A DNA stretch of 64,000 nt. Source: an uncultured Pelagibacteraceae bacterium (lineage in GTDB: Bacteria; Pseudomonadota; Alphaproteobacteria; Pelagibacterales; Pelagibacteraceae). Of the stretch, positions 828-18,726 are shown piece by piece. Position 1 is the stretch's first letter, and each line of letters starts with the position of its first letter. The stretch is from positions 2,005 through 66,004 of the forward strand of contig CACMSB010000006.1 of the NCBI GenBank assembly GCA_902616245.1, read 5' to 3'. Under the pieces are notes generated by a model, which saw only the letters and a program-made list of their open reading frames with translations, made no database searches and was not told the DNA's origin. The position numbers and the translations under genes are program-made.

Positions 828-1901
828 TTAGACCGAGCTAAGATTATCTAAAATTTTTTTTGAACACTGTTCTGTATTACTAGAGCCTTGTAGATCTTTT
901 GTTCGACTGTCTTTATCTTTAAGAGTTAATTCAATTGATTTTACTATTCTATCAGAAGCTTCTTTTTCACCTAAGTAATCTAACATCATTGCAGCTGACC
1001 AAATTTGACCCACTGGATTAGCTATCCCTTGTCCCGCAATATCTGGTGCCGATCCATGAACGGGTTCAAATAATGATGGGTATTTATTTGTTGGATTAAT
1101 ATTTCCAGATGGTGCAATTCCAATAGTTCCAGTACAAGCTGGTCCTAGATCAGATAGAATATCCCCAAAAAGGTTCGATGCGACTATCACATCAAAGCGT
1201 TCAGGACTTAACACAAATCTAGCAGCTAATATATCGATATGGTATTGATCAGTTTCAACTTCAGGATAATTTTTTTTATTTACATTAAATCTTTCATCCC
1301 AATAAGGCATTGTAATAGATATTCCATTTGATTTTGTGGCACTTGTTAGTTTTTTTCTCTTCCTTATCTTAGCTAATTCAAAAGCAAATTGTTGAACTCT
1401 ATCTATTCCATATTTTGACATTACTGTTTCTTGAATAACAACCTCTCTATCAGTTCCCTGATACATTCTTCCACCGACTGATGAGTATTCTCCTTCAGTA
1501 TTTTCTCTAACAATTATCATGTCGATATCACCCGGTTTTTTATTAGCTAATGGTGCATTTACACCTTCAAAAAGTTTTACAGGTCTTAAGTTAATAAATT
1601 GATCAAACTCTCTTCTAAATTTTAACAACGATCCCCAAAGAGTTATGTGATCTGGATATTTATCTGGCATACCAACCGCACCAAAGAAAATTGCATCGTG
1701 TTTAGTTAATTTATCTTTCCAGTCATCTGGCATCATTTTTCCATGCTTTTCATAATAATCACATGATGCAAAATCATAATCTTCTATATTTAATTTAAAT
1801 TGATGTTGTTGAGAAATTTCTTTTAATATTTTTTGTGCTTCAGGTACAACTTCTTTTCCAATGCCGTCACCAGCAATAGAAGCTATTGAATATTCTTTCA
1901 T
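828..1901 (-). CDS. ttuC: Tartrate / D-malate dehydrogenase (decarboxylating; isocitrate/isopropylmalate dehydrogenase family)
   Basis: Motifs IAGDGIGKEV, TLWGSLLKFRREFDQFINLRP, VASNLFGDILSDLGPACTGTIGIAPS and FEPVHGSAPDIAGQGIANP match the TtuC/DmlA subfamily. Confidence 0.85.
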   Translation of the reverse strand: MKEYSIASIAGDGIGKEVVPEAQKILKEISQQHQFKLNIEDYDFASCDYYEKHGKMMPDDWKDKLTKHDAIFFGAVGMPDKYPDHITLWGSLLKFRREFDQFINLRPVKLFEGVNAPLANKKPGDIDMIIVRENTEGEYSSVGGRMYQGTDREVVIQETVMSKYGIDRVQQFAFELAKIRKRKKLTSATKSNGISITMPYWDERFNVNKKNYPEVETDQYHIDILAARFVLSPERFDVIVASNLFGDILSDLGPACTGTIGIAPSGNINPTNKYPSLFEPVHGSAPDIAGQGIANPVGQIWSAAMMLDYLGEKEASDRIVKSIELTLKDKDSRTKDLQGSSNTEQCSKKILDNLSSV

Positions 1902-3934: not shown

Positions 3935-4715
3935 AATTATTCCTAATAAAAAAAATATAGGTGCAGAATTAGTCTGTGATTTAAATAAAATTAATAATTC
4001 TACATTAAAAAAAATAAAATCTGCTCTCTCAAAATATGGAATGATTTATTTTAGAAACCAAAAATTAAGCTCTGATCATTATGTAAAATTTGCAAAAAAA
4101 TTTGGAAAACTTGCAAATTATCCAAGACTTAAAGGATTGAATAAAAAATATCCTCAAATAACTGTTGTTCAAAGAAAATCTACAGATAAAGGCCCTAGTT
4201 TTGGTGAGCAATTTCATACTGACTCAATTTATACTAAAAAACCACCTAGATTTACTATGTTACTATCTAAATTAGTTCCAAAAAAAGGTCAGGCAAACAC
4301 AGATTTTTGTTCCCAATATTTAGCTTATGAGAAATTACCAGCAAACTTTAAAAGAAAGTTGAAAGACGAAAAATGTATATTTTCTTCTGAAGGACCCATT
4401 TCTGTAACAAGATTAGAAAGAGAGAAAGAAAAGGGTAAAAAAGCGAAAGAACTTATTTCAAAGCATAAATTAATAAGAAAAATAAATAGTAAATATACTT
4501 TATACTGTAGTCCTGGACACTTTATTCGTTTTAATAACAGCAAAATTGATGAAAAATTAAAAACTTATTTATTTAAACACCAATTAAAAAAAAGTTTTCA
4601 ATATTCTTTAGAATGGGAAAAGAACCAATTAGCCATTTGGGATAACAGATCTATGCTACATCAAGCAACGGCCTTTAAAGGTAATAGAATTATGCATAGA
4701 ATTACTGTCCAATAA
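3927..4715 (+). CDS. TauD/TfdA-family Fe(II)/2-oxoglutarate dioxygenase
   Basis: HxD motif (FHTDS), WDNRSMLH with distal His, RIMHR with the 2OG-binding Arg, N-terminal IGAEL...YFRNQ. Confidence 0.85.
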   Translation: MLKIIPNKKNIGAELVCDLNKINNSTLKKIKSALSKYGMIYFRNQKLSSDHYVKFAKKFGKLANYPRLKGLNKKYPQITVVQRKSTDKGPSFGEQFHTDSIYTKKPPRFTMLLSKLVPKKGQANTDFCSQYLAYEKLPANFKRKLKDEKCIFSSEGPISVTRLEREKEKGKKAKELISKHKLIRKINSKYTLYCSPGHFIRFNNSKIDEKLKTYLFKHQLKKSFQYSLEWEKNQLAIWDNRSMLHQATAFKGNRIMHRITVQ

Positions 4716-5638: not shown

Positions 5639-5644
5639 ATAAAT

Positions 5645-6094
5645 ATGATCAAAAATATATTTAGTATCCTTTTTATTTCTTTATTCTTATCATCGATTTC
5701 GATAGCTAAAGATAAAATAGATGAAACTATTGATAAAACCACTGACTTTTTAAAATCTATATCTAAGAAAAGTTTGAATAAATCACAAACTGCAGAATTT
5801 TTAAATAATTATGCAATAACATTGGAAGATGAGAGAAATCAAGGTGTTGTAACTTATATATTTGATGAAAAAAATTATAAAAGATACCAAGATGGAAACG
5901 TCATTTCAGAAGATGGATGGAGATTTACAAACTTTGGTAAATTAAGAGTTTTTTCAGGAGATATCAAATTAACATGGAAATTTAAACTTGATAAGCAAAA
6001 CGTAATAGTAATTAAAACTAAATTTCAACCACTTGGAAAAGAATATCCTTTTACCTACCAACTAAAAGATAAGTTCTTTGAACAAATTAACTAA
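5645..6094 (+). CDS. Hypothetical exported protein
   Basis: 149-aa ORF with a signal-peptide-like N-terminus (MIKNIFSILFISLFLSSISIA|K); no recognised motif. Confidence 0.7.
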   Translation: MIKNIFSILFISLFLSSISIAKDKIDETIDKTTDFLKSISKKSLNKSQTAEFLNNYAITLEDERNQGVVTYIFDEKNYKRYQDGNVISEDGWRFTNFGKLRVFSGDIKLTWKFKLDKQNVIVIKTKFQPLGKEYPFTYQLKDKFFEQIN

Positions 6095-6208
6095 ATGTCA
6101 AAAAGATATAGCGGTAAATCATTTAAAGACTCTAGTGTAATGAAAAAAGCCAAACTTTCTCTTAAGGAAAAAAGAAAAATTAAAAAAGATAAGAAAAAGA
6201 GTAAGTGA
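6095..6208 (+). CDS. Putative 37-aa lysine-rich small protein
   Basis: ATG directly follows the upstream TAA. Hand translation MSKRYSGKSFKDSSVMKKAKLSLKEKRKIKKDKKKSK*; below the ORF-track cutoff. Confidence 0.45.
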   Translation: MSKRYSGKSFKDSSVMKKAKLSLKEKRKIKKDKKKSK

Positions 6209-6216
6209 AATCTTGT

Positions 6217-6244
6217 TTGCATCAAAAAATAAAAGTAGTATAAA
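6217..6244 (+). promoter_or_regulatory. Candidate sigma70 promoter for tRNA-Met
   Basis: TTGCAT (6217-6222), 16-bp spacer, TATAAA (6239-6244), 15 nt upstream of the tRNA. Confidence 0.45.
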
Positions 6245-6259
6245 CCAACAATTATTTAC

Positions 6260-6336
6260 GGCGGGGTAGCTCAGTTGGTTAGAGCGCGGGACTCATAAGC
6301 CCGAGGTCAGTGGTTCGATCCCACTTCCCGCTACCA
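6260..6336 (+). tRNA. tRNA-Met (CAT), most likely elongator
   Basis: 77-nt cloverleaf: acceptor GGCGGGG/TCCCGCT, D-arm AGCTCAGTTGGTTAGAGC, anticodon loop CTCATAA, T-loop TTCGATC, encoded CCA. G1:U72, G2:C71, C3:G70 and A73, with no C1:A72 mismatch, argue against the initiator. Confidence 0.96.
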
Positions 6337-6864
6337 TCAATGACCAGGAAAATCTAAAAGATTTTCAACTTTATATCCTTTTTTTAAAAGATTATCAGTA
6401 CCACCAAGATCAAACAAATTAATTACAAAAATAAATCCTGCAACCTTGCTTTTTGATATTTCTATTAGTTTAGCTGCAGCTTCAGCAGTACCTCCAGTTG
6501 CAATTAAGTCATCAATAATTAATACATTATCGCTTTCATTAAATGAGTCTTTATGAACTTCAATTGTAGCCGTTCCATATTCTAGCTCAAAATCAACAGA
6601 ATGTACCTCAGCGGGTAGTTTATTTTTTTTTCTTAACATTATAAATGGCTTATCTAAGATGTATGAAATAGCAGAAGCAAATACAAAACCCCTAGATTCT
6701 ACAGCTGCTATTTTATCAAAATTAAATTTTTTTGATCTCTCTACTATTTGATCAATACATTCTTTAAATGCTTTTTCATTTTTTATGAGAGTTGTGATGT
6801 CTCTAAATAGAATTCCCTTTTTAGGATAGTCTTGAATTGATCTAATATGTTCTTTTAAATCCAT
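6337..6864 (-). CDS. apt: Adenine phosphoribosyltransferase
   Basis: DYPKKGILFRDITTL, ESRGF, LEYGTA, PRPP-binding IIDDLIATGGT. Confidence 0.97.
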   Translation of the reverse strand: MDLKEHIRSIQDYPKKGILFRDITTLIKNEKAFKECIDQIVERSKKFNFDKIAAVESRGFVFASAISYILDKPFIMLRKKNKLPAEVHSVDFELEYGTATIEVHKDSFNESDNVLIIDDLIATGGTAEAAAKLIEISKSKVAGFIFVINLFDLGGTDNLLKKGYKVENLLDFPGH

Positions 6865-6872
6865 AAAACTTA

Positions 6873-6880
6873 ATTATAAT
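6873..6880. promoter_or_regulatory. Palindromic ATTATAAT giving a perfect TATAAT -10 box on both strands in the 28-bp apt/mtnP gap
   Basis: TATAAT at 6875-6880 (+) lies 12 nt before the mtnP ATG; TATAAT at 6878-6873 (-) lies 8 nt before the apt ATG. Confidence 0.45.
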
Positions 6881-6892
6881 CTAAAACGTATT

Positions 6893-7762
6893 ATGGCAAA
6901 TAATAAATTAGCAATTATTGGTGGAAGTGGCCTATATGATGTTGAAGAGTTTAAAGATAGAGAAACTTTAGATTTAAACACTCCTTGGGGAAAACCCTCA
7001 GATTTAATATTAAAAGCTGAATATAATAATAAAGAAATTTTTTTTTTACCAAGACATGGAAAAGGTCATTTTATTTCTCCATCAAAAATAAATTTTAGAG
7101 CAAATATAGATGCTCTTAAACAACTAGGTATCACAGATATAGTTTCTGTTTCAGCAGTTGGATCTTTAAAGGAAGATTTGCCTCCAGGTAAATTTGTTAT
7201 CGTTGATCAATTCATTGATAGAACTTTTGCAAGATACAAAACTTTTTTTGATGATGAGATTGTTGCACATGTATCAATGGCACACCCAACTTCAAATGGG
7301 CTGATGAATGCTTGCGAAGATGCTATAAAAAAAGAAAGCATACCTTATCAAAGAGGTGGAACTTATGTTGTAATGGAAGGTCCACAATTTTCTACATTAG
7401 CAGAGTCAAACCTATATAGATCATGGAAAGCAGATGTTATTGGAATGACAAATATGCCAGAAGCTAAACTAGCAAGAGAAGCAGAAATTAGATATGCTTC
7501 AGTTTCAATGGTAACAGATTATGATTGCTGGCATCCAGATCATGAAAATGTTGATGTTCAACAAGTTATAAAAGTACTCTTAGATAATGCAGCGAAAGCA
7601 AAAAACATGATTAAAAATTTGATAGAGAACTTTGAAAATCACATTGATCCTAAGGATCCAACTAATAATTGCTTAGATGTAGCAATAATTACTGCTCCAG
7701 AAAAAAGAACTCAAAAGACTAAAGATAAATTAAAAACAATTGCAGGAAGAGTTCTTACTTAA
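6893..7762 (+). CDS. mtnP: S-methyl-5'-thioadenosine phosphorylase
   Basis: IIGGSGLY, FLPRHG, INFRANI, MEGPQFSTLAES, DVIGMTNMPEAKLAREAE, TDYDCW. Confidence 0.95.
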   Translation: MANNKLAIIGGSGLYDVEEFKDRETLDLNTPWGKPSDLILKAEYNNKEIFFLPRHGKGHFISPSKINFRANIDALKQLGITDIVSVSAVGSLKEDLPPGKFVIVDQFIDRTFARYKTFFDDEIVAHVSMAHPTSNGLMNACEDAIKKESIPYQRGGTYVVMEGPQFSTLAESNLYRSWKADVIGMTNMPEAKLAREAEIRYASVSMVTDYDCWHPDHENVDVQQVIKVLLDNAAKAKNMIKNLIENFENHIDPKDPTNNCLDVAIITAPEKRTQKTKDKLKTIAGRVLT

Positions 7763-8838
7763 TGAAAATTAATGGTGTTAAATATAAAACAATTTGGTTT
7801 GATGAAGAAAAACAGGTTGTAAAAATAATAGATCAAACAAAGCTTCCACATAAGTTTATAATAAAAGAATTAAATTCAGTTAAAGACGCGATAAATGCTA
7901 TAAAAACAATGGAGGTGAGAGGTGCTCCATTAATCGGAGGTACAGCTGCATTTGGATTGGTTTTAGCTATAAAAGAAAATAACAGTTTAGATTTTATAAA
8001 AAAAAGTTCAGAGGAATTAGTTGCATCTAGACCAACAGCAATAAATCTTCAGTGGGCAGTTCATAGAATGAATAACAAATTGTCATTTGTTGAACCTGGA
8101 GATTTATTTAATGTTGCACTCAATGAAGCTAAAGAAATTTGTAAAGAGGATGAGGGATTTTGTGAAAGTATTGGTAAAAATGGATTAAATATTATTGAAG
8201 ATATATATAATAAAAAGAAAGATACTGTCAATATTCTCACACATTGTAATGCAGGTTGGTTAGCTACAATAGATTGGGGAACAGCAACTTCTCCTATTTA
8301 TCATGCACATAAAAAAGGAATACCTATACATGTTTGGGTAGATGAAACTAGACCAAGAAATCAAGGAGCAAACCTTACATCATATGAACTTAATGAAGAA
8401 GAAATTCCAAATACAATTATAGCAGATAATACAGGTGGAATATTAATGCAAAGAGGACAGGTTGATATGTGTATTGTTGGAACAGATAGAACATTATCTA
8501 ACGGAGATGTGTGCAATAAAATTGGAACCTATTTAAAAGCTCTTGCAGCTCATGATAATAAGGTACCTTTTTACGTAGCTTTACCAAGTTCAACGATAGA
8601 TTGGAATTTAAAAAACGCAAAAAATATTCCTATAGAAGAAAGAGATCCAAAAGAACTTTCTCATGTGGATGGAATTAACAAAGATAATAAAGTGGATAAA
8701 GTTTTAATATATCCCGAAAAAAGCAAATCATTAAATTTAGCCTTTGATGTAACACCTGCTAAATATGTTACTGCATTAATAACAGAAAAGGGAGTTTGTG
8801 ATGCTTCTTCTGAGGGTTTAAAAAAGTTATTTAATTAA
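7762..8838 (+). CDS. mtnA: S-methyl-5-thioribose-1-phosphate isomerase
   Basis: MEVRGAPLIG, SRPTAINL, THCNAGWLAT, ETRPRNQGA, GTDR...NKIGTY, AFDVTPAKYV. Confidence 0.95.
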   Translation: MKINGVKYKTIWFDEEKQVVKIIDQTKLPHKFIIKELNSVKDAINAIKTMEVRGAPLIGGTAAFGLVLAIKENNSLDFIKKSSEELVASRPTAINLQWAVHRMNNKLSFVEPGDLFNVALNEAKEICKEDEGFCESIGKNGLNIIEDIYNKKKDTVNILTHCNAGWLATIDWGTATSPIYHAHKKGIPIHVWVDETRPRNQGANLTSYELNEEEIPNTIIADNTGGILMQRGQVDMCIVGTDRTLSNGDVCNKIGTYLKALAAHDNKVPFYVALPSSTIDWNLKNAKNIPIEERDPKELSHVDGINKDNKVDKVLIYPEKSKSLNLAFDVTPAKYVTALITEKGVCDASSEGLKKLFN

Positions 8839-10872
8839 TTATCTTAAAGAAGCTGCAATATTTCCACCGTCAACAGTTAGTACTGCTCCAGTTGATTTTT
8901 TTGATATCGCAAGATGATAAAAAGCTTTGGCCACATCATCTGCTTTAACTTCGCTTAACAGTAAATTGCCACTCATATATTGATCAGTGGTTACTTCTCT
9001 TGCTTTCGCTCTTTGTTTAATCATTTTATCATTTAATAAACCACTTCTAATTCTATCAGCGTTTACACCGTTTGATCTAATACCAAGGTGTCCATAATCA
9101 ACTGCATATTGTTTACATAAATTTAAAAGCGCAGACTTAGGCAATCCATATGGTCCAAAATTTTTACCAGGATTAACTGATTGCTTAGATATATTAAATA
9201 ACAAACATCCATTTATATTTTGTTTTTTCATAATTTTAACAGCCTCTGAAGCACAATTTTGATGTGAGAAAAAATTATCTTCAAAACTTTTTCGAAGTAT
9301 TTCATCATTAACTTCTGCAATTGATCCACCTATAGCAGTGCCTGCATTAGATATTAAAATATCTACACCTCCATATATCTCCAAAATTTTATTAAATGCT
9401 TTTTTTACACTTTGTTTGTCAGTTACATCACAGTGGATACAAAGATCACTTATTTTTGTTTGCAAATCATTTATTTTACTTTTATTAATATCAAGTAAAA
9501 CAACTTCAGCTCCATATTTTTTAAATAATTTATAGGTTGCTTTACCAATTTCGCCTGTGCTACCAGTGATAACAACAACGTTTCCTTGCAATTCTTTTTT
9601 TGCTTTATTTAATTTTGCTTGTTCCAAGGACCAATACTCAACATCAAATAAGTCTTTTTTCGATAAAAATTTATATCTGGATGTTTCCTCAACACTTGAA
9701 ATTACATTGGCATTAGTTTGAGTTAAATCTCCTGCAATTTTTGCAGCTTTTAAGGTATCTCCTACTGTAAATAAACCAAAATTCTGAACTAGAATTACTC
9801 TAGGAGATGTATCAAGCATTACTTTTTTTTCTTTAGTTTTTTTCTTATTAGATTCAAAATATTTTTTATATTTTTGCCTATATTCTTTGAATTTTTTTTC
9901 AGCTAAATTTTTAAATTCATCTAAATTACAGTTTGCTTTTGGTGATATTACTAAAGGAAATGGTTTAACTCTTATAACATGATCAGGTGTAGCTGTACCT
10001 TCATTTGAGTATCTATTTATATCTTTACCATTAATAAAATAATCTAACTTACTATTTTTTTTAAAATTTATGATAAATTTGTTATCATTTTTTTCAGATA
10101 AAAGACCTCTCAATATAGGAGCTATATCTGCAGTTGAGAAATTAAATTTAGTTTTCTTTATCTGTTTTATTTTTTTCTTTTTTAGTTTGGTTAAAGTTTT
10201 TTCAGCATCAGATATATACTTTATCATTAAACTGTAAGCATCTTTTGCATTATCAGCAAATGTGAAAATACCGTGGTTTAATAAAATCAAACAATTTATA
10301 TTTGGATTTTTAGAATAAACTTCATTTATTTTTTGTGCTAATTTAAATCCTGGCATTACATATGGCACTATTGCAGTTTTTTTACCAAATATTTTTTTTG
10401 ATAAGATTTCTCCATTTGGTCTATTAGTGATTTTCATAATTGCATCAGAATGAGTGTGATCAACAAATTTTAACGGTAAAAATGCGTGTAAAAAAGTTTC
10501 AACTGATGGATTGGGAGATTTTGTATCTATTAAATTTTTTTTTTGAAAAGCAACCATGTCATCATCAGAGAGAGTTTTCTTTTTTTTCATAGTTAGCAAT
10601 GGATTTAATTTAACTGCTGGCAAACCCGCTGGTTCAATTTCCGCCATATCCCATCCGCTGCCTTTTACGCAAAGAACATCATAATATTTACCATCTATAT
10701 CCTTGATTTTTGTCTTAACTGATGTATTTCCACCACCATGCAATACCAATTCTGGATTTCTTCCTAGAAGCCTAGTTGTATAAACTCTTAGAGCCATATC
10801 CTCAGAATGACCTAATTTTTTATACTTTTTTATGTATTTTTTAGCTTCGTTATCTGACCAATTGTTTTTCAA
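8839..10872 (-). CDS. Bifunctional class II aldolase / short-chain dehydrogenase (RhaD/RhaEW-like fusion)
   Basis: N-domain GGGNTSVK, PSVETFLH, DHTH and NHG (Zn ligands). C-domain TGSTGEIG, NAG and YGLPK (SDR). TTG start with a GAGG SD. Confidence 0.88.
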   Translation of the reverse strand: MKNNWSDNEAKKYIKKYKKLGHSEDMALRVYTTRLLGRNPELVLHGGGNTSVKTKIKDIDGKYYDVLCVKGSGWDMAEIEPAGLPAVKLNPLLTMKKKKTLSDDDMVAFQKKNLIDTKSPNPSVETFLHAFLPLKFVDHTHSDAIMKITNRPNGEILSKKIFGKKTAIVPYVMPGFKLAQKINEVYSKNPNINCLILLNHGIFTFADNAKDAYSLMIKYISDAEKTLTKLKKKKIKQIKKTKFNFSTADIAPILRGLLSEKNDNKFIINFKKNSKLDYFINGKDINRYSNEGTATPDHVIRVKPFPLVISPKANCNLDEFKNLAEKKFKEYRQKYKKYFESNKKKTKEKKVMLDTSPRVILVQNFGLFTVGDTLKAAKIAGDLTQTNANVISSVEETSRYKFLSKKDLFDVEYWSLEQAKLNKAKKELQGNVVVITGSTGEIGKATYKLFKKYGAEVVLLDINKSKINDLQTKISDLCIHCDVTDKQSVKKAFNKILEIYGGVDILISNAGTAIGGSIAEVNDEILRKSFEDNFFSHQNCASEAVKIMKKQNINGCLLFNISKQSVNPGKNFGPYGLPKSALLNLCKQYAVDYGHLGIRSNGVNADRIRSGLLNDKMIKQRAKAREVTTDQYMSGNLLLSEVKADDVAKAFYHLAISKKSTGAVLTVDGGNIAASLR

Positions 10873-10960
10873 TGTTTAACCTCAATAAATTATTATAATA
10901 GTTTTTTGTTTGAAAGAAGTAAAAAATTTCGTTAGTTAAAAAAACATATATTAGATTCTT

Positions 10961-12001
10961 ATGGAAAAAGTTGGGGAACATATAACACTGGATATAGTTG
11001 GAACTAAAAAGGAATATACTCCCGAATTTTATGAAAAGTTAGTTTATAAAATTGCTAAAGCAGCAAAAGTAACAGTTCTAAAAATATCTAAATATAAATT
11101 TGAGCCACAAGGATTTACATTGGTCGCTTTGCTTGCTGAAAGCCACATTAGTTTTCATACTTTCCCAGAAAAAGAAATTGTAAGCTTTGATTTTTTTACA
11201 TGTGGAAAAGTATCACCAAAAGTTTCTCTAGATATAATAAAAGATGAGATGGAACACACAAATATCATCATTAAAGAATTTAATAGAGATACTATTGATC
11301 TTTATCATGACAATTATAGTTCTCCAGGTTTAAAAAAATCATATGTTGTTAATAGAGTTTTAGAAAATTTTAAATCTAAAGTAGGTCAATATATTGAAAT
11401 ACTTGATTTAGAACAATTTGGAAAAGCTTTATTTATTGATAATGAAATACAAGTAGCTGAAAGTGATGAACATTTATATAGCTCAACCTTTGTAAATTCA
11501 GGTCTTAATTTAAATTCGAAAAAAGAAAAAGCTGCAATTATTGGTGGAGGTGATGGTGGTGTAGCAAGAGAATGCATTTCACAAAACTTTGGCTTTATAG
11601 ATTGGTATGAATTAGATCCTGAAGTTGTGGATGTGTGTGATAAACACCTAAGTAAAATTGGTGAGAAGGCCACAGAAAAGAATTCAGTTAAATGCGTTTG
11701 GGGAGATGCTTTTGAAAGTATTAAATCTGTCAAAGATAATACTTATGATCAAATATTTGTAGATCTGAATGATGATCAATTTTGTATAGATCTGGCTGCA
11801 AAAAATATGTCATCTTTAGAAAGAATTTTAAAACCTAAAGGTGTAATTACCGCTCAAGTAGGAAGCCAAGACAAAAAACCAAAACAAGTTGAAAATTGGT
11901 TAAATGTTTTTAACAAAAATTTTGGAAATACAAAACTTTCAAGAGTTTATATACCAAGTTTCGATTGTTCTTGGAATTTTTCCTCGTCAATAAATCATTA
12001 A
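10961..12001 (+). CDS. S-adenosylmethionine decarboxylase proenzyme fused to spermidine synthase (SpeD-SpeE fusion)
   Basis: N-domain LLAE|SHISFHTFPE (pyruvoyl self-cleavage) and FFTCG. C-domain FGKALFID, IGGGDGG, ELDPEVV, DAFE, IFVD, YIPSF...W. Confidence 0.9.
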   Translation: MEKVGEHITLDIVGTKKEYTPEFYEKLVYKIAKAAKVTVLKISKYKFEPQGFTLVALLAESHISFHTFPEKEIVSFDFFTCGKVSPKVSLDIIKDEMEHTNIIIKEFNRDTIDLYHDNYSSPGLKKSYVVNRVLENFKSKVGQYIEILDLEQFGKALFIDNEIQVAESDEHLYSSTFVNSGLNLNSKKEKAAIIGGGDGGVARECISQNFGFIDWYELDPEVVDVCDKHLSKIGEKATEKNSVKCVWGDAFESIKSVKDNTYDQIFVDLNDDQFCIDLAAKNMSSLERILKPKGVITAQVGSQDKKPKQVENWLNVFNKNFGNTKLSRVYIPSFDCSWNFSSSINH

Positions 12002-12059
12002 TTTTTCTTTTTAAAACAATAATTTTATGAAATAATCTTTAAAATTTTTGGAGGAAAAA

Positions 12060-12887
12060 ATGAAAAAATTAAAAGTATTAGGACTTGGTATTTTAATATC
12101 ATCATTTCTAACAATTTCTTCAATTGCAGATCAAATTAAAATAGGAACTGAAGGTGCATATCCGCCTTGGAATTCTAAAGATTCAGCTGGAAATTTGATT
12201 GGCTTTGAAGTCGAATTAGCAAATGAATTATGCAAAATTATGAATCATGATTGCACAATTGTAGAGCAAGACTGGGATGGAATGATACCAGCTTTGGTTT
12301 CAAGAAAATTTGATGCCATCATGGCTGGAATGTCAATAACTGGTGAGAGAATGAAAACAATAAATTTTTCTCAAGGTTATGCTGATGAAGTTGCATCATT
12401 AGCTGTTATGAAAGGATCAAAAAACGAAGGTCTTAAAACAATGTCAGCTATAAATTTATCTGACGTAAGTGCTGATGAACAAGCAACACTAGATGTTTTG
12501 ACTAAAGCATTTAAAGGTAAAACTATTGGTGTACAAACAGCAACAATTCACCAGAACTTCCTAGAGTCTGGTTTAATGGGTAATGTAAAAATAAGAACTT
12601 ACAAAACTCAAGATGAAGTTAACTTGGATTTATCTGCTGGTAGAATAGATGCAGCACTAGCTGCAGCAGTTGCTTTTACGGATTATGCAGAAAAATCTGG
12701 TAAAGGAGTTGTATTAACTGGACCAACATTTGCAGGTGGAGATTTTGGTAATGGTGTTGGAGTAGGTATTAGAAAAGGTGACTCTAAACTTTTAAATGAT
12801 TTTAATGCAGCAATTGATAAAGCTAGAGATGATGGCATTATCAGTAAGCTTGCTATAAAACATTTTGGTTTTGACGCTTCTATGTAA
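12060..12887 (+). CDS. Polar (basic) amino acid ABC transporter substrate-binding protein (HisJ/ArgT/OccT-like)
   Basis: Signal peptide, IGTEGAYPPWN, EQDWDGMIPAL..RKFDAIMAGMSITGER. GGAGG SD at 12050-12054 favours the ATG at 12060. Confidence 0.9.
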   Translation: MKKLKVLGLGILISSFLTISSIADQIKIGTEGAYPPWNSKDSAGNLIGFEVELANELCKIMNHDCTIVEQDWDGMIPALVSRKFDAIMAGMSITGERMKTINFSQGYADEVASLAVMKGSKNEGLKTMSAINLSDVSADEQATLDVLTKAFKGKTIGVQTATIHQNFLESGLMGNVKIRTYKTQDEVNLDLSAGRIDAALAAAVAFTDYAEKSGKGVVLTGPTFAGGDFGNGVGVGIRKGDSKLLNDFNAAIDKARDDGIISKLAIKHFGFDASM

Positions 12888-12897
12888 TAAATTATTT

Positions 12898-12923
12898 ATG
12901 GGTGGCTATAATTAGCCACCTAT
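12898..12923 (+). promoter_or_regulatory. Intercistronic stem-loop between SBP and permease genes
   Basis: ATGGGTGGCTA-TAAT-TAGCCACCTAT: 11-bp stem with one G:U; ends 3 nt before the permease ATG; no U-tract. Confidence 0.65.
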
Positions 12924-12926
12924 ATT

Positions 12927-13619
12927 ATGGAACTTCTATATTTTGGTGATAAAGGTTGGGGAGACGAGTTATTCTTTGCAACCTTAATGACAATTGCGGT
13001 TTCAATAACCGCAATGATAATAGGCTTTATATTTGCTGCCTTATTTACTCCATTAAAATTATCTAATAACAAATTTCTTAATTCTATTGGTAATGCTTAC
13101 ACCACTGTTATTAGAGGTGTGCCTGAGCTACTAGTAATTTATTTATTTTTCTTTGGTGGAAGTGGAGCAATTATGTTTGTTGCTTCAATATTTGGTTATA
13201 ATGATTATATTGAAATTAATGCTTTTTTAACTGGTTCTTTTTCAATAGGGATAATATCGGGAGCATATTCAACTGAGGTATTTAGAGGAGCCCTACAATC
13301 AATTGATAAGGGTCAGTTCGAAGCTGCAAAAGTTTTAGGTTTTAATAAATATATTTACTTCTTTAAAATTATTTTGCCTCAAATGCTTAGACTAGCAATT
13401 CCAAACTTAAGTAATGTTTGGCAAATTACTTTAAAAGATACTTCTCTTATTTCTGTAACAGGTTTGGTTGAAATAATGAGACAATCTTATATCGCTGCCG
13501 GCTCAACTAGAGATCCATTATTTTTTTACTCATTTGCAGCAGTTCTATACTTAATGCTTACATTTTTAAGTATGCAATTATTAAATAGATTAGAAACAAA
13601 ATATAGCAAAGGTTATTAA
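12927..13619 (+). CDS. Polar amino acid ABC transporter permease (HisQ/OccQ-like)
   Basis: YTTVIRGVPELL, AYSTEVFRGA, EAA motif GQFEAAKVLG, LKDTSLIS. Confidence 0.92.
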   Translation: MELLYFGDKGWGDELFFATLMTIAVSITAMIIGFIFAALFTPLKLSNNKFLNSIGNAYTTVIRGVPELLVIYLFFFGGSGAIMFVASIFGYNDYIEINAFLTGSFSIGIISGAYSTEVFRGALQSIDKGQFEAAKVLGFNKYIYFFKIILPQMLRLAIPNLSNVWQITLKDTSLISVTGLVEIMRQSYIAAGSTRDPLFFYSFAAVLYLMLTFLSMQLLNRLETKYSKGY

Positions 13620-14296
13620 TGGATATTGAATTAATGATAAATAGTTTTCCTAAGTTGTTAAACGCAACTTTGATTACTCTTAAACTATTATCTGTATCTC
13701 TAATTCTTGGTCTTTTTATTGGATTAGGTTTTGCAATCTTGAGAATGAATAATAATAAGTTGATTAATAAATTTGCTTACGGGTATTCATATATTTTTAG
13801 AGGAACACCTTTATTGGTTCAAATCTTCATAATATATTTTGGATTAGGTCAAATTGAATATTTAAGAACAACAATTTTATGGGTAGTTTTAAAAGAACCA
13901 TACTGGTGTGCGATAATTGCATTTTCATTAAATACTGGGGCTTATACTTCAGAAATATTGAGATCAGCTTTTCAAACTATAAAACCAGGATATTTAGAAG
14001 CTGGAAGAAGCCTAGGGATACCTTCAAAAATTATTTTTACAAAAATACAAATTCCTATTGCAATTAAACAATCTTTACCAGCGTATGGTAATGAAATTAT
14101 TTTAATGCTCAAAGGTACATCTTTGGCAAGTACAGTCACACTTATGGACTTAACTGGTGTTGCTAAATATATAATTTCAACAACTTTTAAGCCTGTCGAG
14201 GTATTTATTGTGGCAGGAGGTATTTACTTGTTTATGACTTTTATAATCCATAATGTAATTAAATATTTAGAAAAAAAATATGGATTTCAAACATGA
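13619..14296 (+). CDS. Polar amino acid ABC transporter permease (HisM/OccM-like)
   Basis: FRGTPLLVQ, LNTGAYTSEILR, LEAGRSLG, LKGTSLAS. Confidence 0.92.
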   Translation: MDIELMINSFPKLLNATLITLKLLSVSLILGLFIGLGFAILRMNNNKLINKFAYGYSYIFRGTPLLVQIFIIYFGLGQIEYLRTTILWVVLKEPYWCAIIAFSLNTGAYTSEILRSAFQTIKPGYLEAGRSLGIPSKIIFTKIQIPIAIKQSLPAYGNEIILMLKGTSLASTVTLMDLTGVAKYIISTTFKPVEVFIVAGGIYLFMTFIIHNVIKYLEKKYGFQT

Positions 14297-15078
14297 AAAT
14301 AGCATGCATACAATTATCTAGTGGAGAAAATTATGAAAGTAATTTCAAAGATATTCTTAAATACGTAAATCAAGCTATAAAAAATAAATCTGATTTAATT
14401 ATTACACCTGAAACCTCTTCTTTGATGTCCAGTAGTAGAGAAACACTGTTTAAATATTCATTTGAAATGAATAAAGATCCAATTTTGAAAAAAATTAAAG
14501 AAGTTTCAAAAAAATTTAAGAAATGGATTTTACTTGGATCAATTTGCGTTAAGGTTAAAAATAAACTTAGAAATAGATCTATACTGGTTGGACCGAATGG
14601 AAAAATTGTTAAATATTATGATAAAATTAATATGTTTGATGTTAAAATTCCAAATAAAGAGCAACATAAGGAAAGTAAAACTTTTAAAGCAGGAAATAAA
14701 TTAGTCACCGCCAATTTACCTTGGGGTAAAATAGGTTTTACAATTTGTTATGATCTCAGATTCCCAGAACTTTACAGAAATTTATCTAAAAAAAATCTAA
14801 GTTTTATTGCTGTTCCGTCAGCTTTTACAAAGTTTACTGGACAAAAACATTGGTTAACTCTTTTAAGAGCAAGAGCGATTGAAAATTTTTGTTATATATT
14901 TGCACCAGCTCAAACAGGTAAAAATACTCCAAAAAGAGAAACATTTGGTCATACAGTAATTATTTCACCGGATGGAAAAATATTGGCACTAAAAAAATTA
15001 GGCAAAGGAGTGATATATTCAAAAATTAATCCTAAGCTCTCTATGGATTTAAGAAAAATAATACCAAGTTTAATTTAA
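14293..15078 (+). CDS. Carbon-nitrogen hydrolase, Nit1/YafV (deaminated-glutathione amidase)-like
   Basis: Glu-Lys-Cys triad (PET, YDK, ICYDLRFPEL); AFT..TG..HW..LLRARAIEN; FGHT. Confidence 0.82.
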   Translation: MKIACIQLSSGENYESNFKDILKYVNQAIKNKSDLIITPETSSLMSSSRETLFKYSFEMNKDPILKKIKEVSKKFKKWILLGSICVKVKNKLRNRSILVGPNGKIVKYYDKINMFDVKIPNKEQHKESKTFKAGNKLVTANLPWGKIGFTICYDLRFPELYRNLSKKNLSFIAVPSAFTKFTGQKHWLTLLRARAIENFCYIFAPAQTGKNTPKRETFGHTVIISPDGKILALKKLGKGVIYSKINPKLSMDLRKIIPSLI

Positions 15079-16523
15079 TTCCTGCTATCCACAATCAATG
15101 TATCTTTTGATCCACCACCTTGAGAACTGTTAACTATCGTACTGCCTTTTTTTAGAGCAACTCTAGTTAATCCACCTGTTGTAACATACGTTGATTTACC
15201 TGTTAAAATAAAAGGTCTTAAATCTAAATGTCTTGGTTCAATGTTATCAGGTGTGATTGTAGGTACCGTCGATAGAATTTCTAATGGTTGTGCAATATAA
15301 TTTCTTGGATCTCTCTTAATTTTTTTTATCATTTCATCTTTTTCTTTTTTAGATGCTTTAGGGCCAATCATGATACCATATCCACCAGATGCATTAGCCG
15401 GTTTTACAACTAATTTGGATATATTTGAAATAACATGATTTCTATGTGTTTTTATATTACATAAAAAAGTTTCAACCTGATCAATTTTTGGTTGTTCGCC
15501 TAAATAATATACAATCATCTTTTCTACATACGAATAGACTGCTTTATCATCTGCGACACCAGTTCCTAATGCGTTTATGATACCCACATTACCTTTTCTC
15601 CAGCATTTAAATAGACCAGGAACTCCTAAAAGAGACCCTTTAAAGAATACTTTTGGATCAATAAAATTATCATCTAATCTTCTATATATACAGTCTACCT
15701 TTAGAGGCCCTTTGACAGTTTTCATATAGACATTGTCATTTTCAACAAATAGGTCTTTGCCCTCAACTAAAGCAATACCCATTTGTTCTGCTAAAAATTC
15801 GTGTTCAAAATAAGCTGAATTATAAACTCCTGGAGTTAATAAAACCATATGTGGATTATTAGTTTTTTTAGGAATGCATTCAGTCATGCAATTATATAAT
15901 TTATTCGCATACTGATGAACTGAAGATACCTTATATCTTGTAAATAATTCAGGGAAAATATCTCTCATTACCATTCGATTTTCCAACATATATGAAACAC
16001 CAGATGGAACCCTAAGATTATCCTCAAGCACTAAAAAATTACCATTTATATTTTTAATTAAATCTGTTCCAGAAATATTAGCCCAAGCCTTATGTTTTGG
16101 TGAAAAACCATCGCATTCTTTCAAATATTGTGGAGAATTAAAAACTAATTCTTTTGGAATTATTTTGTCCTTAAATATTTTTTTTTGATTATAGACATCA
16201 TCTATAAATAAATTTAACGCCTTAATTCTTTGGGATAATCCTATAGATACTGTTTTCCATTGCGATTTCGTTATAATTCTTGGTATAATATCTAAAGGCC
16301 ATTTTTTTTCTTCCGCTCTATTACTTGCAGAGTAAACTCTAAAATTTATTCCTCTAGCATTTATTGTACTTTGGCAATTTAACTCAATTTCTTGAAGTCT
16401 CTTTTTTCCATATTTTTCGAGAATACTTGAAATAATTTTAGCATGACTTCTTAACTTTTTATCTTTGCTAATGTATCCGTCAAAAGTTGATTTTGAATCA
16501 TAATTTTTCCAAAAATCTGACAT
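15075..16523 (-). CDS. Circularly permuted type 2 ATP-grasp protein (DUF404/DUF407-like)
   Basis: WPLDIIPR, VLEDNLRVPSGVSYMLENR, LTPGVYNSAYFEH, IYRRLDD.F.DP, NALGTGVADDK, VVKPANASGGYG, DLRPF, GLTRVAL...VNSSQGGGSKDT. Confidence 0.92.
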   Translation of the reverse strand: MSDFWKNYDSKSTFDGYISKDKKLRSHAKIISSILEKYGKKRLQEIELNCQSTINARGINFRVYSASNRAEEKKWPLDIIPRIITKSQWKTVSIGLSQRIKALNLFIDDVYNQKKIFKDKIIPKELVFNSPQYLKECDGFSPKHKAWANISGTDLIKNINGNFLVLEDNLRVPSGVSYMLENRMVMRDIFPELFTRYKVSSVHQYANKLYNCMTECIPKKTNNPHMVLLTPGVYNSAYFEHEFLAEQMGIALVEGKDLFVENDNVYMKTVKGPLKVDCIYRRLDDNFIDPKVFFKGSLLGVPGLFKCWRKGNVGIINALGTGVADDKAVYSYVEKMIVYYLGEQPKIDQVETFLCNIKTHRNHVISNISKLVVKPANASGGYGIMIGPKASKKEKDEMIKKIKRDPRNYIAQPLEILSTVPTITPDNIEPRHLDLRPFILTGKSTYVTTGGLTRVALKKGSTIVNSSQGGGSKDTLIVDSRN

Positions 16524-16637
16524 ATTTACTTAATTTTTTTACATAAGAGTCAAATAAGCAAATGATTAAATTAGATACCTGATATGAAATAAATGGGTTT
16601 TATTGTGATAACATATAATTTAAACAGTTAATTGATC

Positions 16638-17360
16638 ATGACTTATTGTATTGGCATTAAAACAGAGACCGGATTAGTATTTGCATCAGACTCTAGAACA
16701 AACGCTGGACTTGATAATGTAAATATATACTCCAAAATGCTAACACATGATGTTGGGGATAGATCAATTGTAATTGTCACTTCAGGAAATCTTGGAACTT
16801 CCCAGGCAGTTTATAATTCAATAAAAAAAGATTTAAAAAGTGAAACAGGTATTATGAATTTAAATACATGCAGTGATTTTGAGCAAATTGCTTCGTATAT
16901 AGGCTCCTTAAATATTGAGCATTCTTCACCTCAAGGCATTAATACTGATAGTGTTTTACTAGGCTCAACCTTTATTGTTGGTGGTCAAATAAAAGATCAA
17001 CTACCACAATTATATTTAGTTTACCCGCAAGGTAATTATATTCGTCCAGCAGATAGCAAACCATATTTAGTTATAGGAGAAGTGAAATATGGGAAACCTA
17101 TTTTAGATAGAGTAATCACACCAAAAGTCTCAATTGGCGATGCATCGAGATGCGCACTGATATCAATGGACTCTACATTAAAAAGTGATCTAACAGTTGG
17201 ACCGCCTATAGACTTTGCTGTTATCAAAAAAGATGAAATCAAAATAGCATCACTTAAATGCTTAAATATGAATGACCCTGAATTTTCCAAAGTTTGTAAT
17301 CAGTGGTCGCAAGGTATTTTTAAGATATTTGACTCTTTTCAAAGGTTTGACTGGGAATAA
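16638..17360 (+). CDS. Anbu proteasome-type (Ntn) peptidase
   Basis: M-T1YCIG...D17SRTNAG.D...K32 triad; GQI...P.LYLVYPQGN.I; QIGE.KYGKPILDR-like segment; ALISMDST..S.L.VGPP.D. Confidence 0.92.
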   Translation: MTYCIGIKTETGLVFASDSRTNAGLDNVNIYSKMLTHDVGDRSIVIVTSGNLGTSQAVYNSIKKDLKSETGIMNLNTCSDFEQIASYIGSLNIEHSSPQGINTDSVLLGSTFIVGGQIKDQLPQLYLVYPQGNYIRPADSKPYLVIGEVKYGKPILDRVITPKVSIGDASRCALISMDSTLKSDLTVGPPIDFAVIKKDEIKIASLKCLNMNDPEFSKVCNQWSQGIFKIFDSFQRFDWE

Positions 17361-17362
17361 AA

Positions 17363-17752
17363 TTAATATTTTGTGTATTCTTTAATTTCTTTAATTTTAG
17401 AACCTGTTTTATTATTTATTTCTAATTTTAATTTTGCTCGTTCATCATTTAAGAAGTGAACATCTCTTGATAATTTAATAAATTTTTCACCAAAGTCAGA
17501 GTTTTTTTCGCAAAGTCTTTTGTCATCCTCTATTACCCAAAGCTTTGAATTAATTTCTTTTAGCGAGTTATACAAAGTTTCAATTTCACTGTAAATTTTA
17601 ATATTTGTATTTAATTGATCTTTCAAAATATTATATTCATCAATTATAAAGTTTAGTTTCTTAGGATCTTTAATTTTTTCAGATTTAATTTCTAAAATCG
17701 AAATTTTATCCAGTAATTCTCCAACTGATACTTCTACTAAAATTTTATTCAT
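17363..17752 (-). CDS. Conserved hypothetical protein (DUF6165-like)
   Basis: VSVGELLDKISILEIK, N..LW.IED..R, ND.RA.LK..IN...GS.I.E.K.Y pattern. Confidence 0.7.
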   Translation of the reverse strand: MNKILVEVSVGELLDKISILEIKSEKIKDPKKLNFIIDEYNILKDQLNTNIKIYSEIETLYNSLKEINSKLWVIEDDKRLCEKNSDFGEKFIKLSRDVHFLNDERAKLKLEINNKTGSKIKEIKEYTKY

Positions 17753-17784
17753 ATAAATTGATATTATGTTAAGTTGTTAAAAAT

Positions 17785-18726
17785 ATGTCTAATATACTTA
17801 TTATAAAACATGGTTCCTTGGGTGATATAGCTCAAGCAAGTGGTGCAATTCAAGATATATCTGACAACCATCCAAATGATAATCTATATATACTGTCGAC
17901 TAAGCCATATTATAATTTATTAAAAAAAAATCCAAATATAACTGATGTAATTTTAGATAAAAGGCTCTCTAGGTTTAACCTAATTTATTTATATTTATTA
18001 ATGAGAAAGATAAAAAAATATAAATTTATTAAAGTTTATGATCTTCAAAATTCTAAAAGAACAAGTTTTTACAAAAAAATTCTTTACCCCAAAGCTTCAT
18101 CAGATATTTGGTCATCAACTGAAACAACTCTTCCAGAGGGAACTAATAAGACAGATTTTGATAAAGACACTGTTCTAAATCGCTTTGAACATCAATTAAA
18201 TGTTTCTGGAATTAAAACTGATAAGGTAACAAAACCAGACTTTTCTTGGAGCTGTGAAAATATTTCAGAAATCAAAAAAAAATATAATTTAAACAAGTAT
18301 ATAATTTTATTTCCTTTTTCATCGTCTCATTTAACCATAAAAAGATGGCCATATTACAATGAATTAATTAAAAAAATTAAATCTACTTTTGAAGATAAAA
18401 TTCAAATTTTAATAGCTCCTGGCCCAAATGAAATAAAATTAGCAAAAGATATTGATGCTAATATTATTTTAAATAATGATAAAGCATTAAGTATTTCTCA
18501 ACTTTCATCATTAATAAAAGATAGTTATTTTGTTATCTCCAATGATACTGGTCCAGCACATATGGCAGCACACTTAAATGTAAAAGGTTTAGTTTTATTT
18601 GGATCACACACTACTGCTCAAAAAGTTAGTATTGAACGAGAATACTTTAAAGCAATTCAAGTTTCAGATTTGGCTAAACTTTCTGCTGATAAAGTATTTC
18701 AAAAAATGCAAGAATCCATTAATTAG
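17785..18726 (+). CDS. Glycosyltransferase family 9 (heptosyltransferase-like)
   Basis: IIKHGSLGDI, YDLQ, KRWP, ISNDTGPAHMAA, LFG. Confidence 0.88.
   Translation: MSNILIIKHGSLGDIAQASGAIQDISDNHPNDNLYILSTKPYYNLLKKNPNITDVILDKRLSRFNLIYLYLLMRKIKKYKFIKVYDLQNSKRTSFYKKILYPKASSDIWSSTETTLPEGTNKTDFDKDTVLNRFEHQLNVSGIKTDKVTKPDFSWSCENISEIKKKYNLNKYIILFPFSSSHLTIKRWPYYNELIKKIKSTFEDKIQILIAPGPNEIKLAKDIDANIILNNDKALSISQLSSLIKDSYFVISNDTGPAHMAAHLNVKGLVLFGSHTTAQKVSIEREYFKAIQVSDLAKLSADKVFQKMQESIN

What the first reader, a model, noticed from the sequence alone, without database searches (positions are those of the whole stretch)
15075..17360. Minimal Anbu system: peptidase and circularly permuted ATP-grasp are divergent, with no alpha-E or transglutaminase gene
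Seen: both genes look intact (Anbu T1/D17/K32; ATP-grasp motifs). The ATP-grasp stop overlaps the nitrilase stop, leaving no room for the usual downstream genes. Known: Anbu normally sits in a four-gene operon (CP-ATP-grasp, alpha-E/DUF403, transglutaminase, Anbu) proposed to make and remove a peptide tag, and its function is unresolved. Inferred: streamlining may have exposed the essential two-component core, a ligase plus a hydrolase.
Basis: partly seen in the sequence, partly recalled or inferred. Interest (0 to 1): 0.64.

Follow-up and report, generated by a model that had tools for sequence, protein, structure and literature searches.

The report
Two-gene Anbu locus in SAR11
A large clade of the abundant ocean bacterium SAR11 keeps only two genes of the unexplained four-gene 'Anbu operon' (the ATP-dependent ligase and the proteasome-like Anbu peptidase), while sister cultured Pelagibacter strains and SAR86 bacteria still keep the alpha-E helper gene, so nature offers a comparison of which parts the system needs.

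Summary
An intact circularly permuted ATP-grasp gene (15075-16523, minus strand) and an intact Anbu-1 gene (real start 16638, end 17360, plus strand) are divergently transcribed. The ATP-grasp stop overlaps the nitrilase stop. No alpha-E or transglutaminase gene lies in the 64-kb window.

The layout is not a one-off. All 80 SAR11 species loci examined have the same pair, with four different genes downstream of the ligase. Both genes are under strong purifying selection and appear in marine metatranscriptome assemblies.

New here: the pair is the end of a reduction series. Cultured Pelagibacter strains (HIMB1321, 'P. communis') and SAR86 carry Anbu divergent from ATP-grasp plus alpha-E, without transglutaminase. 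These loci form one clade with the window's pair. Alpha-E loss maps to the stem of the two-gene clade. It coincides with substitutions at three ligase residues (E16, P334, W476) that are otherwise invariant.

Anbu-less ATP-grasp/alpha-E/transglutaminase triads do exist in other SAR11-like lineages.

Verdict: a new variant of a known, functionally unsolved system, of moderate interest.

The parts
15075..16523 (-). Circularly permuted ATP-grasp amidoligase (COG2308 type), 482 aa, alpha-E-less '2G' form
   Evidence: PF14403 at E 8e-154 over the full-length model. Matches 3N6X at E 2.5e-138. It keeps 107 of 111 columns that are near-invariant across the family. E16G, P334(N/E) and W476(L/M) are specific to the alpha-E-less clade. 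dN/dS 0.01-0.06. Covered by metatranscriptome contigs in 4 runs.
16524..16637 (.). 114-bp divergent intergenic region, a presumed shared promoter and control region
   Evidence: About 89% identical between the window and L007, although flanking genes have dS 0.8-1.1. The core CAAATG-N13-ATAYCWGNTATG is kept across SAR11 subclades. There is no Rfam match, and the promoter-consensus scan did no better than chance. A regulatory function is inferred.
16638..17360 (+). Anbu-1 type proteasome-like Ntn hydrolase, 240 aa from ATG 16638 (the ORF list starts it at TTG 16632)
   Evidence: E 6e-62 to the designed consensus Anbu (5LOY) and 1e-51 to 6e-45 to natural Anbu structures. Has Met-Thr1, Asp17 and Lys32. 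All 27 near-invariant Anbu columns are kept. dN/dS 0.013-0.03. Covered by metatranscriptome contigs.
840..1901 (-). Iso_dh gene, used as a synteny anchor and not part of the system
   Evidence: 81% identical to the Iso_dh gene that directly follows alpha-E in Pelagibacter three-gene loci (L372, L374, L376). The order Iso_dh - X - ligase - Anbu is shared. X is alpha-E in those strains and about 13 kb of unrelated genes in the window.

Best explanation
This is a reduced but working derivative of the Anbu gene cluster. It consists of an ATP-grasp amidoligase gene and an Anbu Ntn-hydrolase gene transcribed divergently from one conserved 114-bp control region.

It belongs to a distinct 'divergent' lineage of Anbu loci, shared by SAR86 (Gammaproteobacteria) and Pelagibacter, that lacks the transglutaminase gene at the locus. 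Within Pelagibacter, one clade (the window, HIMB1409, AAA795-P11 and at least 80 species-level genomes) has additionally lost alpha-E. The loss occurred at the junction between the ligase gene and Iso_dh.

Inferred mechanism:
- The ligase uses ATP to form an acyl-phosphate and joins a carboxylate to an amine, either a peptide or amino-acid tag on a protein or a small amide.
- Anbu, through its N-terminal Thr1, hydrolyses that product or degrades the marked substrate.
- Alpha-E would be an accessory partner of the ligase (specificity or regulation) that this clade dispenses with.
- By analogy with Pseudomonas, the likely physiological setting is nitrogen economy or protein turnover.

Shown: the anatomy, conservation, phylogeny, selection and presence in RNA assemblies. 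Inferred: the chemistry, the coupling of the two enzymes and the role of alpha-E.
For: Identity of both genes.

Conservation of the pair:
- 80 of 80 SAR11 species loci have the divergent pair with a spacer of about 110 bp.
- At least 507 genomes encode a relative of this Anbu.
- Downstream of the ligase there are four unrelated genes in different subclades: nitrilase, photolyase, CoA-transferase III and carB. The pair is therefore the conserved unit.

Phylogeny:
- In the Anbu tree, the two-gene clade is sister to the Pelagibacter three-gene loci (HIMB1321, P. communis) at 100/97. Both group with SAR86-type loci at 100/100.
- The ligase tree is congruent, at 97/92 and 100/99.
- Three-gene loci: SAR86 SAGs L281-L290 and Pelagibacter L372 and L374-L378, including the complete HIMB1321 genome.
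- Iso_dh provides a synteny anchor.

Function retained:
- dN/dS is 0.01-0.06, lower than in neighbouring genes.
- The ligase keeps 107 of 111 near-invariant columns and Anbu keeps 27 of 27.
- The stem branch of the two-gene clade is no longer than that of the three-gene clade.
- Metatranscriptome contigs from 4 runs cover both genes, while the flanks are mostly uncovered.

Footprint of alpha-E loss: E16, P334 and W476 are invariant in 193 alpha-E-linked ligases, including Pelagibacter three-gene and SAR86 loci. They are replaced only in the two-gene clade.

Background on operon composition, the nitrogen-limitation response and ATP hydrolysis by the ligase: PMC3235984, PMC5666114, PMC6376114.
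Against:
- Valas & Bourne found no Anbu genome without a transglutaminase domain (PMC3235984).
- SAR11-like lineages do carry ATP-grasp/alpha-E/transglutaminase triads (398 species hits), so supply in trans is conceivable.
- No biochemical activity of any Anbu on peptides has been shown, and no complex between operon proteins was detected in Yersinia (PMC6376114).
- Fuchs et al. consider a peptide-synthesis role less likely (PMC5666114).
- Contig depth in RNA assemblies is a poor measure of expression, and DNA carry-over is possible.
- The grouping of SAR11 with SAR86 could be inflated by shared AT-rich composition. Other low-GC sequences do not join that clade, and the shared gene order is independent support.
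Confidence: 0.7

Rival explanations
1. The system is not minimal. Alpha-E and transglutaminase are encoded elsewhere in the same genome, for instance in an Anbu-less ATP-grasp/alpha-E/transglutaminase triad, and serve the pair in trans.
For: Triads exist in 398 SAR11-like species genomes, all Anbu-less within 6 kb. Earlier scan notes describe them as an accessory cassette in SAR11. Valas & Bourne found transglutaminase in every Anbu genome.
Against: - None of the 80 listed triad-bearing SAGs shares a name with the 80 listed pair-bearing SAGs.
- Triad loci differ in composition from pair loci. Flank GC is 0.35 or 0.26 for triads against 0.30 for pairs, which points to other lineages.
- The triad has its own ligase, from a separate clade.
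- No cultured Pelagibacter genome appears among the 120 best triad-type alpha-E proteins, whereas the three-gene type does include complete cultured genomes.
- The three clade-specific substitutions in the ligase fit true loss of its partner.
- All of this evidence is indirect.
Confidence: 0.17
2. The two genes are neighbours only by descent and no longer work together. Anbu acts as a stand-alone protease, and the ligase makes a small metabolite of the glutathione or glutathionylspermidine kind.
For: Fuchs et al. favour a general protease role. No interaction between operon proteins was found in Yersinia. 3N6X is deposited as a 'putative glutathionylspermidine synthase'. In the window the neighbouring gene is a Nit1-like amidase.
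Against: - The adjacency and the spacer of about 110 bp survive in every locus, although both flanks vary.
- The intergenic region is far more conserved than synonymous sites.
- The ligase and Anbu trees are congruent across SAR86, three-gene and two-gene loci.
- The nitrilase neighbour is not conserved.
Confidence: 0.1
3. The pair is a decaying remnant of the operon on its way to loss in a streamlined genome.
For: Two of the four canonical genes are gone. SAR11 genomes are under strong reduction.
Against: dN/dS is 0.01-0.06 over dS up to 1.9. All 81 copies are intact. Catalytic and near-invariant residues are kept. RNA contigs cover both genes.
Confidence: 0.02

Closest known systems
Canonical Anbu operon (COG2308 ATP-grasp, COG2307 alpha-E, COG1305 transglutaminase, Anbu) of Pseudomonas, Yersinia bercovieri, Hyphomicrobium and many Alpha- and Betaproteobacteria
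   Same: The ligase and Anbu-1 families are the same, with catalytic residues and the Anbu-1 S1-pocket pattern kept. 65 of 80 reference loci fetched here show the four-gene colinear form.
   Different: Here the two genes are divergent rather than colinear, and alpha-E and transglutaminase are absent from the locus. The ligase carries three substitutions at otherwise invariant sites.
Three-gene divergent Anbu locus of cultured Pelagibacter (HIMB1321, 'Ca. P. communis') and of the SAR86 cluster. It was found here, and no description was found in the searched literature.
   Same: Same divergent orientation, same lack of transglutaminase at the locus, and the same clade in both gene trees (100/100 and 100/99). 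Iso_dh is a shared anchor in Pelagibacter.
   Different: Those loci keep alpha-E immediately after the ligase. Their proteins are only 62-65% (Pelagibacter) or 52-57% (SAR86) identical to the window's.
Anbu-less ATP-grasp/alpha-E/transglutaminase triad of SAR11-like lineages
   Same: It has a COG2308-type ligase and is found in related streamlined marine Alphaproteobacteria.
   Different: It is the complementary subset: it has alpha-E and transglutaminase but no Anbu. Its ligase is 47-50% identical and falls in a separate clade. Its genome composition differs.
Pup-proteasome system of Actinobacteria (PafA ligase, Dop, 20S). This is a functional analogy from general knowledge, not tested here.
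   Same: An ATP-dependent amide ligase is paired with a Thr1 Ntn-hydrolase of the proteasome fold.
   Different: The ligase fold is different, there is no Pup-like tag gene and no AAA+ unfoldase, and Anbu forms an open dodecamer (PMC5666114). No homology of the systems is claimed.

Membership tests
Anbu (ancestral beta subunit) peptidases | Closer in sequence to solved Anbu proteins than to proteasome beta or HslV | tested here: met
   E 6e-62 to 6e-45 for five Anbu structures, against 5e-3 for archaeal proteasome beta. It falls inside the Anbu clade in the trees.
Anbu (ancestral beta subunit) peptidases | No propeptide, with Met-Thr1 at the N-terminus, plus Asp17 and Lys32/33 | tested here: met
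   ATG 16638 gives MTYCIG. D17 and K32 were found by direct count. M0, T1, D17, R19 and G49 are among the 27 of 27 near-invariant columns kept.
Anbu-1 subtype (Fuchs et al. 2017) | Amphiphilic S1 pocket T20, F30, T48, L52, S55 (Pa-Anbu numbering) | tested here: met
   Read from the sequence and the alignment, the residues are T20, Y30, T47, L51 and S54 (a one-residue deletion and a conservative F to Y change). The pocket definition comes from PMC5666114.
Anbu (ancestral beta subunit) peptidases | Open dodecameric 'lock-washer' assembly | not testable with these tools
   Needs purification with SAXS, EM or crystallography.
Circularly permuted ATP-grasp, COG2308 / PF14403 / PF04174 | Full-length match to the family model and retention of family-invariant residues | tested here: met
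   PF14403 positions 1-374 of 374, E 8e-154. 3N6X at E 2.5e-138. 107 of 111 near-invariant columns kept.
Circularly permuted ATP-grasp, COG2308 / PF14403 / PF04174 | ATP-dependent ligase or ATPase activity | not testable with these tools
   Only orthophosphate release by the Yersinia homologue is published (PMC6376114).
Canonical four-gene Anbu operon | Colinear ATP-grasp, alpha-E, transglutaminase and Anbu genes | tested here: not met
   The genes are divergent. There is no alpha-E or transglutaminase in the window or in 80 related loci.
Canonical four-gene Anbu operon | Alpha-E and transglutaminase present somewhere in the same genome (same regulon) | not testable with these tools
The SAG's own sequencing run was not found. 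The read-laying test on run X19 was uninformative.
Divergent three-gene/two-gene Anbu lineage (SAR86 and Pelagibacter; defined here) | Anbu divergent from the ligase, no transglutaminase at the locus, and monophyly of both proteins | tested here: met
   for the anatomy. for the clades (100/100 and 100/99).

The most novel reading that the evidence does not exclude
Ligase plus Anbu is a self-sufficient two-enzyme system in a major clade of the most abundant marine bacteria. Alpha-E would be a dispensable docking or specificity subunit of the ligase. Its loss left a footprint at E16 (FDE motif), P334 and W476 (KDTW motif), which would mark the alpha-E interface. Cultured three-gene strains (HIMB1321) and two-gene strains (HIMB1409) would then be a ready natural gene-removal pair for solving what the Anbu system does.
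Probability: 0.35. Interest if true: 0.7.

Novelty: new variant of a known kind. Interest (0 to 1): 0.5.

Why it matters
The function of Anbu and its operon has been open since 2008, and purified Anbu shows no activity. Workers disagree on whether Anbu serves a peptide-ligation system or is a general protease.

This work shows that the ligase-Anbu partnership survives, under very strong selection and with a conserved shared control region, after first transglutaminase and then alpha-E are lost. That supports a functional link between ligase and peptidase and demotes the other two genes to accessories.

It also names cultured SAR11 strains that differ naturally in alpha-E. It predicts three ligase residues tied to alpha-E. 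And it places the system in two of the most abundant bacterial groups in the ocean, where nitrogen economy matters.

Tried and rejected
- Looking for the SAG's own sequencing run: only metagenomes were returned.
- Run X19 holds a window-like strain at about 3x depth. I laid it on both triad types. No triad was found, but the core-gene flanks of those references did not lay either. The test therefore cannot see a vertically inherited triad.
- Overlap of SAG names between pair holders and triad holders: none. Both lists are cut at 80, so this is weak evidence.
- Rfam scan of 14000-18000, including a possible glutamine riboswitch: nothing.
- Sigma-70 promoter and terminator scan: no better than shuffled sequence.
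- A 241-aa gene after alpha-E in SAR86 was considered as a fourth component. It was rejected because it is a secreted protein with paralogues and lies on the other side in L290.
- The nitrilase was considered as part of the unit. It was rejected because other genes replace it in other subclades.
- 'No transglutaminase' variants in Betaproteobacteria mostly turned out to have a transglutaminase-domain gene of about 1100 aa after Anbu.
- Literature searches for SAR11 or SAR86 together with Anbu, transglutaminase or proteasome-type protease found nothing relevant. Iyer et al. 2009 is not held. Supplements did not mention Pelagibacter.
Full report
**What is there**

The window comes from Pelagibacteraceae single-cell genome AG-892-J03, with a 100% match to L001. 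Three ORFs matter:
- 14293-15078 (+): a carbon-nitrogen hydrolase.
- 15075-16523 (-): a 482-aa protein.
- 16632-17360 (+): a 242-aa protein.

The two convergent stop codons share TTAA at 15075-15078.

The 482-aa protein matches the circularly permuted ATP-grasp models over their full length (PF14403, E 8e-154). It also matches the only solved relative, 3N6X, at E 2.5e-138.

The 242-aa protein matches five solved Anbu structures at E 6e-62 to 6e-45, against 5e-3 for proteasome beta. It has Thr1, Asp17 and Lys32 when counted from the Met-Thr start, and an Anbu-1-like S1 pocket (the pocket definition is from PMC5666114). The true start is most likely ATG 16638 (MTYCIG), because Thr must follow the initiator Met.

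**Local absence of the other two genes**

I fetched canonical operons with the designed consensus Anbu sequence as query. I confirmed their Pfam content: ATP-grasp, Alpha-E, Transglut_core with Bact_transglu_N, and Proteasome. From them I built HMMs.
- 65 of 80 reference loci have the colinear four-gene form.
- Neither the narrow HMMs (0 hits at E<=1) nor the broad HMMs find alpha-E or transglutaminase. The broad HMMs used 212 alpha-E and 185 transglutaminase sequences from very different lineages, with filters off, and gave a best E of 0.29.
- The search covered six-frame ORFs of the window and of 80 SAR11 loci (1.57 Mb).
- The ligase and Anbu HMMs each hit 81 of 81 sequences.

**Not a one-off**

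All 80 best SAR11 species loci have ligase (-) and Anbu (+) about 110 bp apart.

The gene downstream of the ligase differs by subclade: nitrilase in the window, photolyase (L012), CoA-transferase III (L026) or carB (L064). The gene beyond Anbu also changes. The pair, not its surroundings, is therefore the conserved unit, and the nitrilase is not part of it.

**Functional state**

- dN/dS is 0.01-0.06 for the ligase and 0.013-0.03 for Anbu, over dS of 0.04 to 1.9. This is lower than for the neighbouring genes.
- The ligase keeps 107 of 111 columns that are at least 90% conserved in each of four other groups.
- Anbu keeps 27 of 27 such columns.
- Contigs from four marine metatranscriptome runs cover both genes, while the flanking genes are mostly uncovered. 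The caveat is that assembler depth is a poor measure of expression and DNA carry-over is possible.
- The 114-bp spacer is about 89% identical between genomes whose flanking genes have dS near 1. A core, CAAATG-N13-ATAYCWGNTATG, persists across subclades.
- No Rfam family matches, and the promoter scan is uninformative.

**Relatives that change the picture**

I scanned metagenome contigs for the alpha-E 'ER-A-[DE]-N-x-A-R' motif written in AT-rich codons. This returned low-GC marine contigs of several architectures.

One group has Anbu divergent from ATP-grasp plus alpha-E, with no transglutaminase. Its proteins are the closest to the window's: ligase 52-54% identical, Anbu 54-57% identical. 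In named genomes this architecture belongs to SAR86 single-cell genomes.

Next I ran a full HMMER search of cluster representatives with the SAR86 alpha-E. It surfaced a very AT-rich alpha-E (P0135). Its contig (L372) shows the same three-gene divergent locus followed by Iso_dh.
- The L372 Anbu and ligase are 62-65% identical to the window's.
- Its Iso_dh is 81% identical to window ORF 840-1901.
- Sources name this alpha-E as coming from 'Candidatus Pelagibacter communis' and 'Candidatus Pelagibacter sp. HIMB1321', on contigs of 1.32-1.38 Mb.
- The loci in those genomes confirm the order Anbu (-), ligase (+), alpha-E (+), Iso_dh (+), with no transglutaminase within 10 kb.

**Phylogeny**

With IQ-TREE (LG+C20 PMSF, ultrafast bootstrap / SH-aLRT):
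- In the Anbu tree, the two-gene SAR11 clade (97/95) is sister to the Pelagibacter three-gene loci (100/97). Both lie inside a 100/100 clade with the SAR86-type loci, and this clade is separate from all colinear operons.
- The ligase tree is congruent, at 97/92 and 100/99.

The most parsimonious history has three stages:
1. A colinear four-gene operon.
2. A divergent three-gene locus without transglutaminase, shared by a gammaproteobacterial and an alphaproteobacterial lineage. Horizontal transfer is therefore likely, with direction unknown.
3. A two-gene locus after loss of alpha-E on the stem of the window's clade.

The shared order Iso_dh - X - ligase - Anbu places the loss at the junction. 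X is alpha-E in the three-gene strains and about 13 kb of other genes in the window. That same junction carries variable gene content among two-gene subclades.

**A footprint of the loss**

Only four of the 111 near-invariant ligase columns differ in the two-gene clade. Three of them are kept in every alpha-E-linked ligase examined, including Pelagibacter three-gene, SAR86, triad and canonical loci. They are replaced only in the two-gene clade:
- Glu16 of an N-terminal FDE motif.
- Pro334.
- Trp476 of the C-terminal KDTW motif.

Branch lengths show no general acceleration. I infer that these residues serve the interaction with alpha-E or a step that depends on it. This is a prediction, not a result.

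**What remains open**

Earlier scan notes pointed to Anbu-less ATP-grasp/alpha-E/transglutaminase triads in SAR11. I confirmed such triads in 398 species-level genomes. The best 80 are labelled 'uncultured Alphaproteobacteria' or 'Pelagibacteraceae' single-cell genomes.

Several observations suggest the triads sit in other lineages than the pair:
- Their ligase forms a separate clade.
- Their flanks have GC 0.35 or 0.26, against 0.30 for pair loci.
- None of the listed genomes shares a name with the 80 pair holders.
- No complete cultured Pelagibacter genome appears among the best 120 triad-type alpha-E proteins, unlike the three-gene type.

This evidence does not exclude co-occurrence. A read-laying test on a run that holds a window-like strain (X19) was uninformative, because even the core flanks of the triad references did not lay at 80% identity.

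**Comparison with what is known**

The literature held here describes the four-gene operon, its induction under nitrogen limitation in Pseudomonas putida, Anbu structures, and ATP hydrolysis by the Yersinia ligase. It reports no Anbu substrate (PMC3235984, PMC5666114, PMC6376114). I found no mention of Anbu loci in SAR11 or SAR86.

The two proteins are clear members of their families. The locus fails the definition of the canonical operon. It is best described as a new, reduced variant within a previously undescribed divergent lineage of Anbu loci.

**Verdict**

The two-gene state is real, conserved, functional-looking and derived by stepwise loss. 'Minimal for the whole genome' is unproven.
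- Interest is moderate (0.5). The mechanism is still unknown. The series of two-gene, three-gene and four-gene loci, the availability of cultured strains of both Pelagibacter types, and the three-residue footprint make the old question of what the Anbu system does more directly testable.

Noticed in passing
window 16524-16637; same spacer in L001-L080: The divergent spacer is far more conserved than synonymous sites. It keeps a core CAAATG-N13-ATAYCWGNTATG across SAR11 subclades, with a near-palindrome ATATC-N-GATAT in the consensus. This is a candidate operator for an unknown regulator.
   Followed up: partly
window 15075-16523 versus L007-L051: Among very close relatives the ligase comes in two allele classes (about 100% and about 90% amino-acid identity; dS 1.1). 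Anbu (dS 0.5-0.8) and the nitrilase (dS 0.39) beside it diverge less. This suggests recombination breakpoints inside the locus.
   Followed up: partly
window 1902-15074, and L012, L026, L064 left of the ligase: The junction downstream of the ligase is a hot spot of gene-content change in SAR11. The neighbour is nitrilase with an ABC importer, photolyase, a CoA-transferase/ECH/DctM set, or carAB. In three-gene strains alpha-E and Iso_dh sit there.
   Followed up: partly
L373 6544-9968 (GCA_054228925.1): The ATP-grasp and alpha-E genes are followed by a 349-aa Zn_ribbon_DZR_6 plus Peptidase_Mx protein, in place of transglutaminase or Anbu. Its ligase is the sister of the whole divergent Anbu clade. 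A different peptidase may fill the hydrolase role.
   Followed up: no
L081, L083, L084, L088, L090, L091, L093, L103, L138: Betaproteobacterial and related loci have the order ATP-grasp, alpha-E, Anbu, then a transglutaminase-domain protein of about 1100 aa. In L138 the ORF at the alpha-E position is not recognised by the alpha-E HMMs.
   Followed up: partly
L189 9835-12372; L216 3926-6379: Single ORFs of about 815-845 aa hit both the ATP-grasp and the alpha-E HMMs. They appear to be fusions, which would support physical association of the two proteins.
   Followed up: no
L291 4539-8591 (Flavivirga amylovorans): The gene order is ATP-grasp, alpha-E, Anbu, transglutaminase, so Anbu comes before transglutaminase, on a very long Anbu branch (probably Anbu-2 type).
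   Followed up: no
window 14293-15078: The nitrilase-family neighbour is most similar to deaminated-glutathione amidase models but scores far below their cut-offs (204 bits against 500).
   Followed up: no
window 12048-14296: A polar amino-acid ABC importer (binding protein plus two permeases) has no ATPase gene in the operon. Other first-stage notes flag the same layout in related genomes.
   Followed up: no
L278 (GC 0.30), L254/L217, L165/L242/L218: Low-GC marine metagenome contigs of unknown organisms carry the full colinear four-gene Anbu operon. Low GC alone therefore does not go with the reduced form.
   Followed up: no
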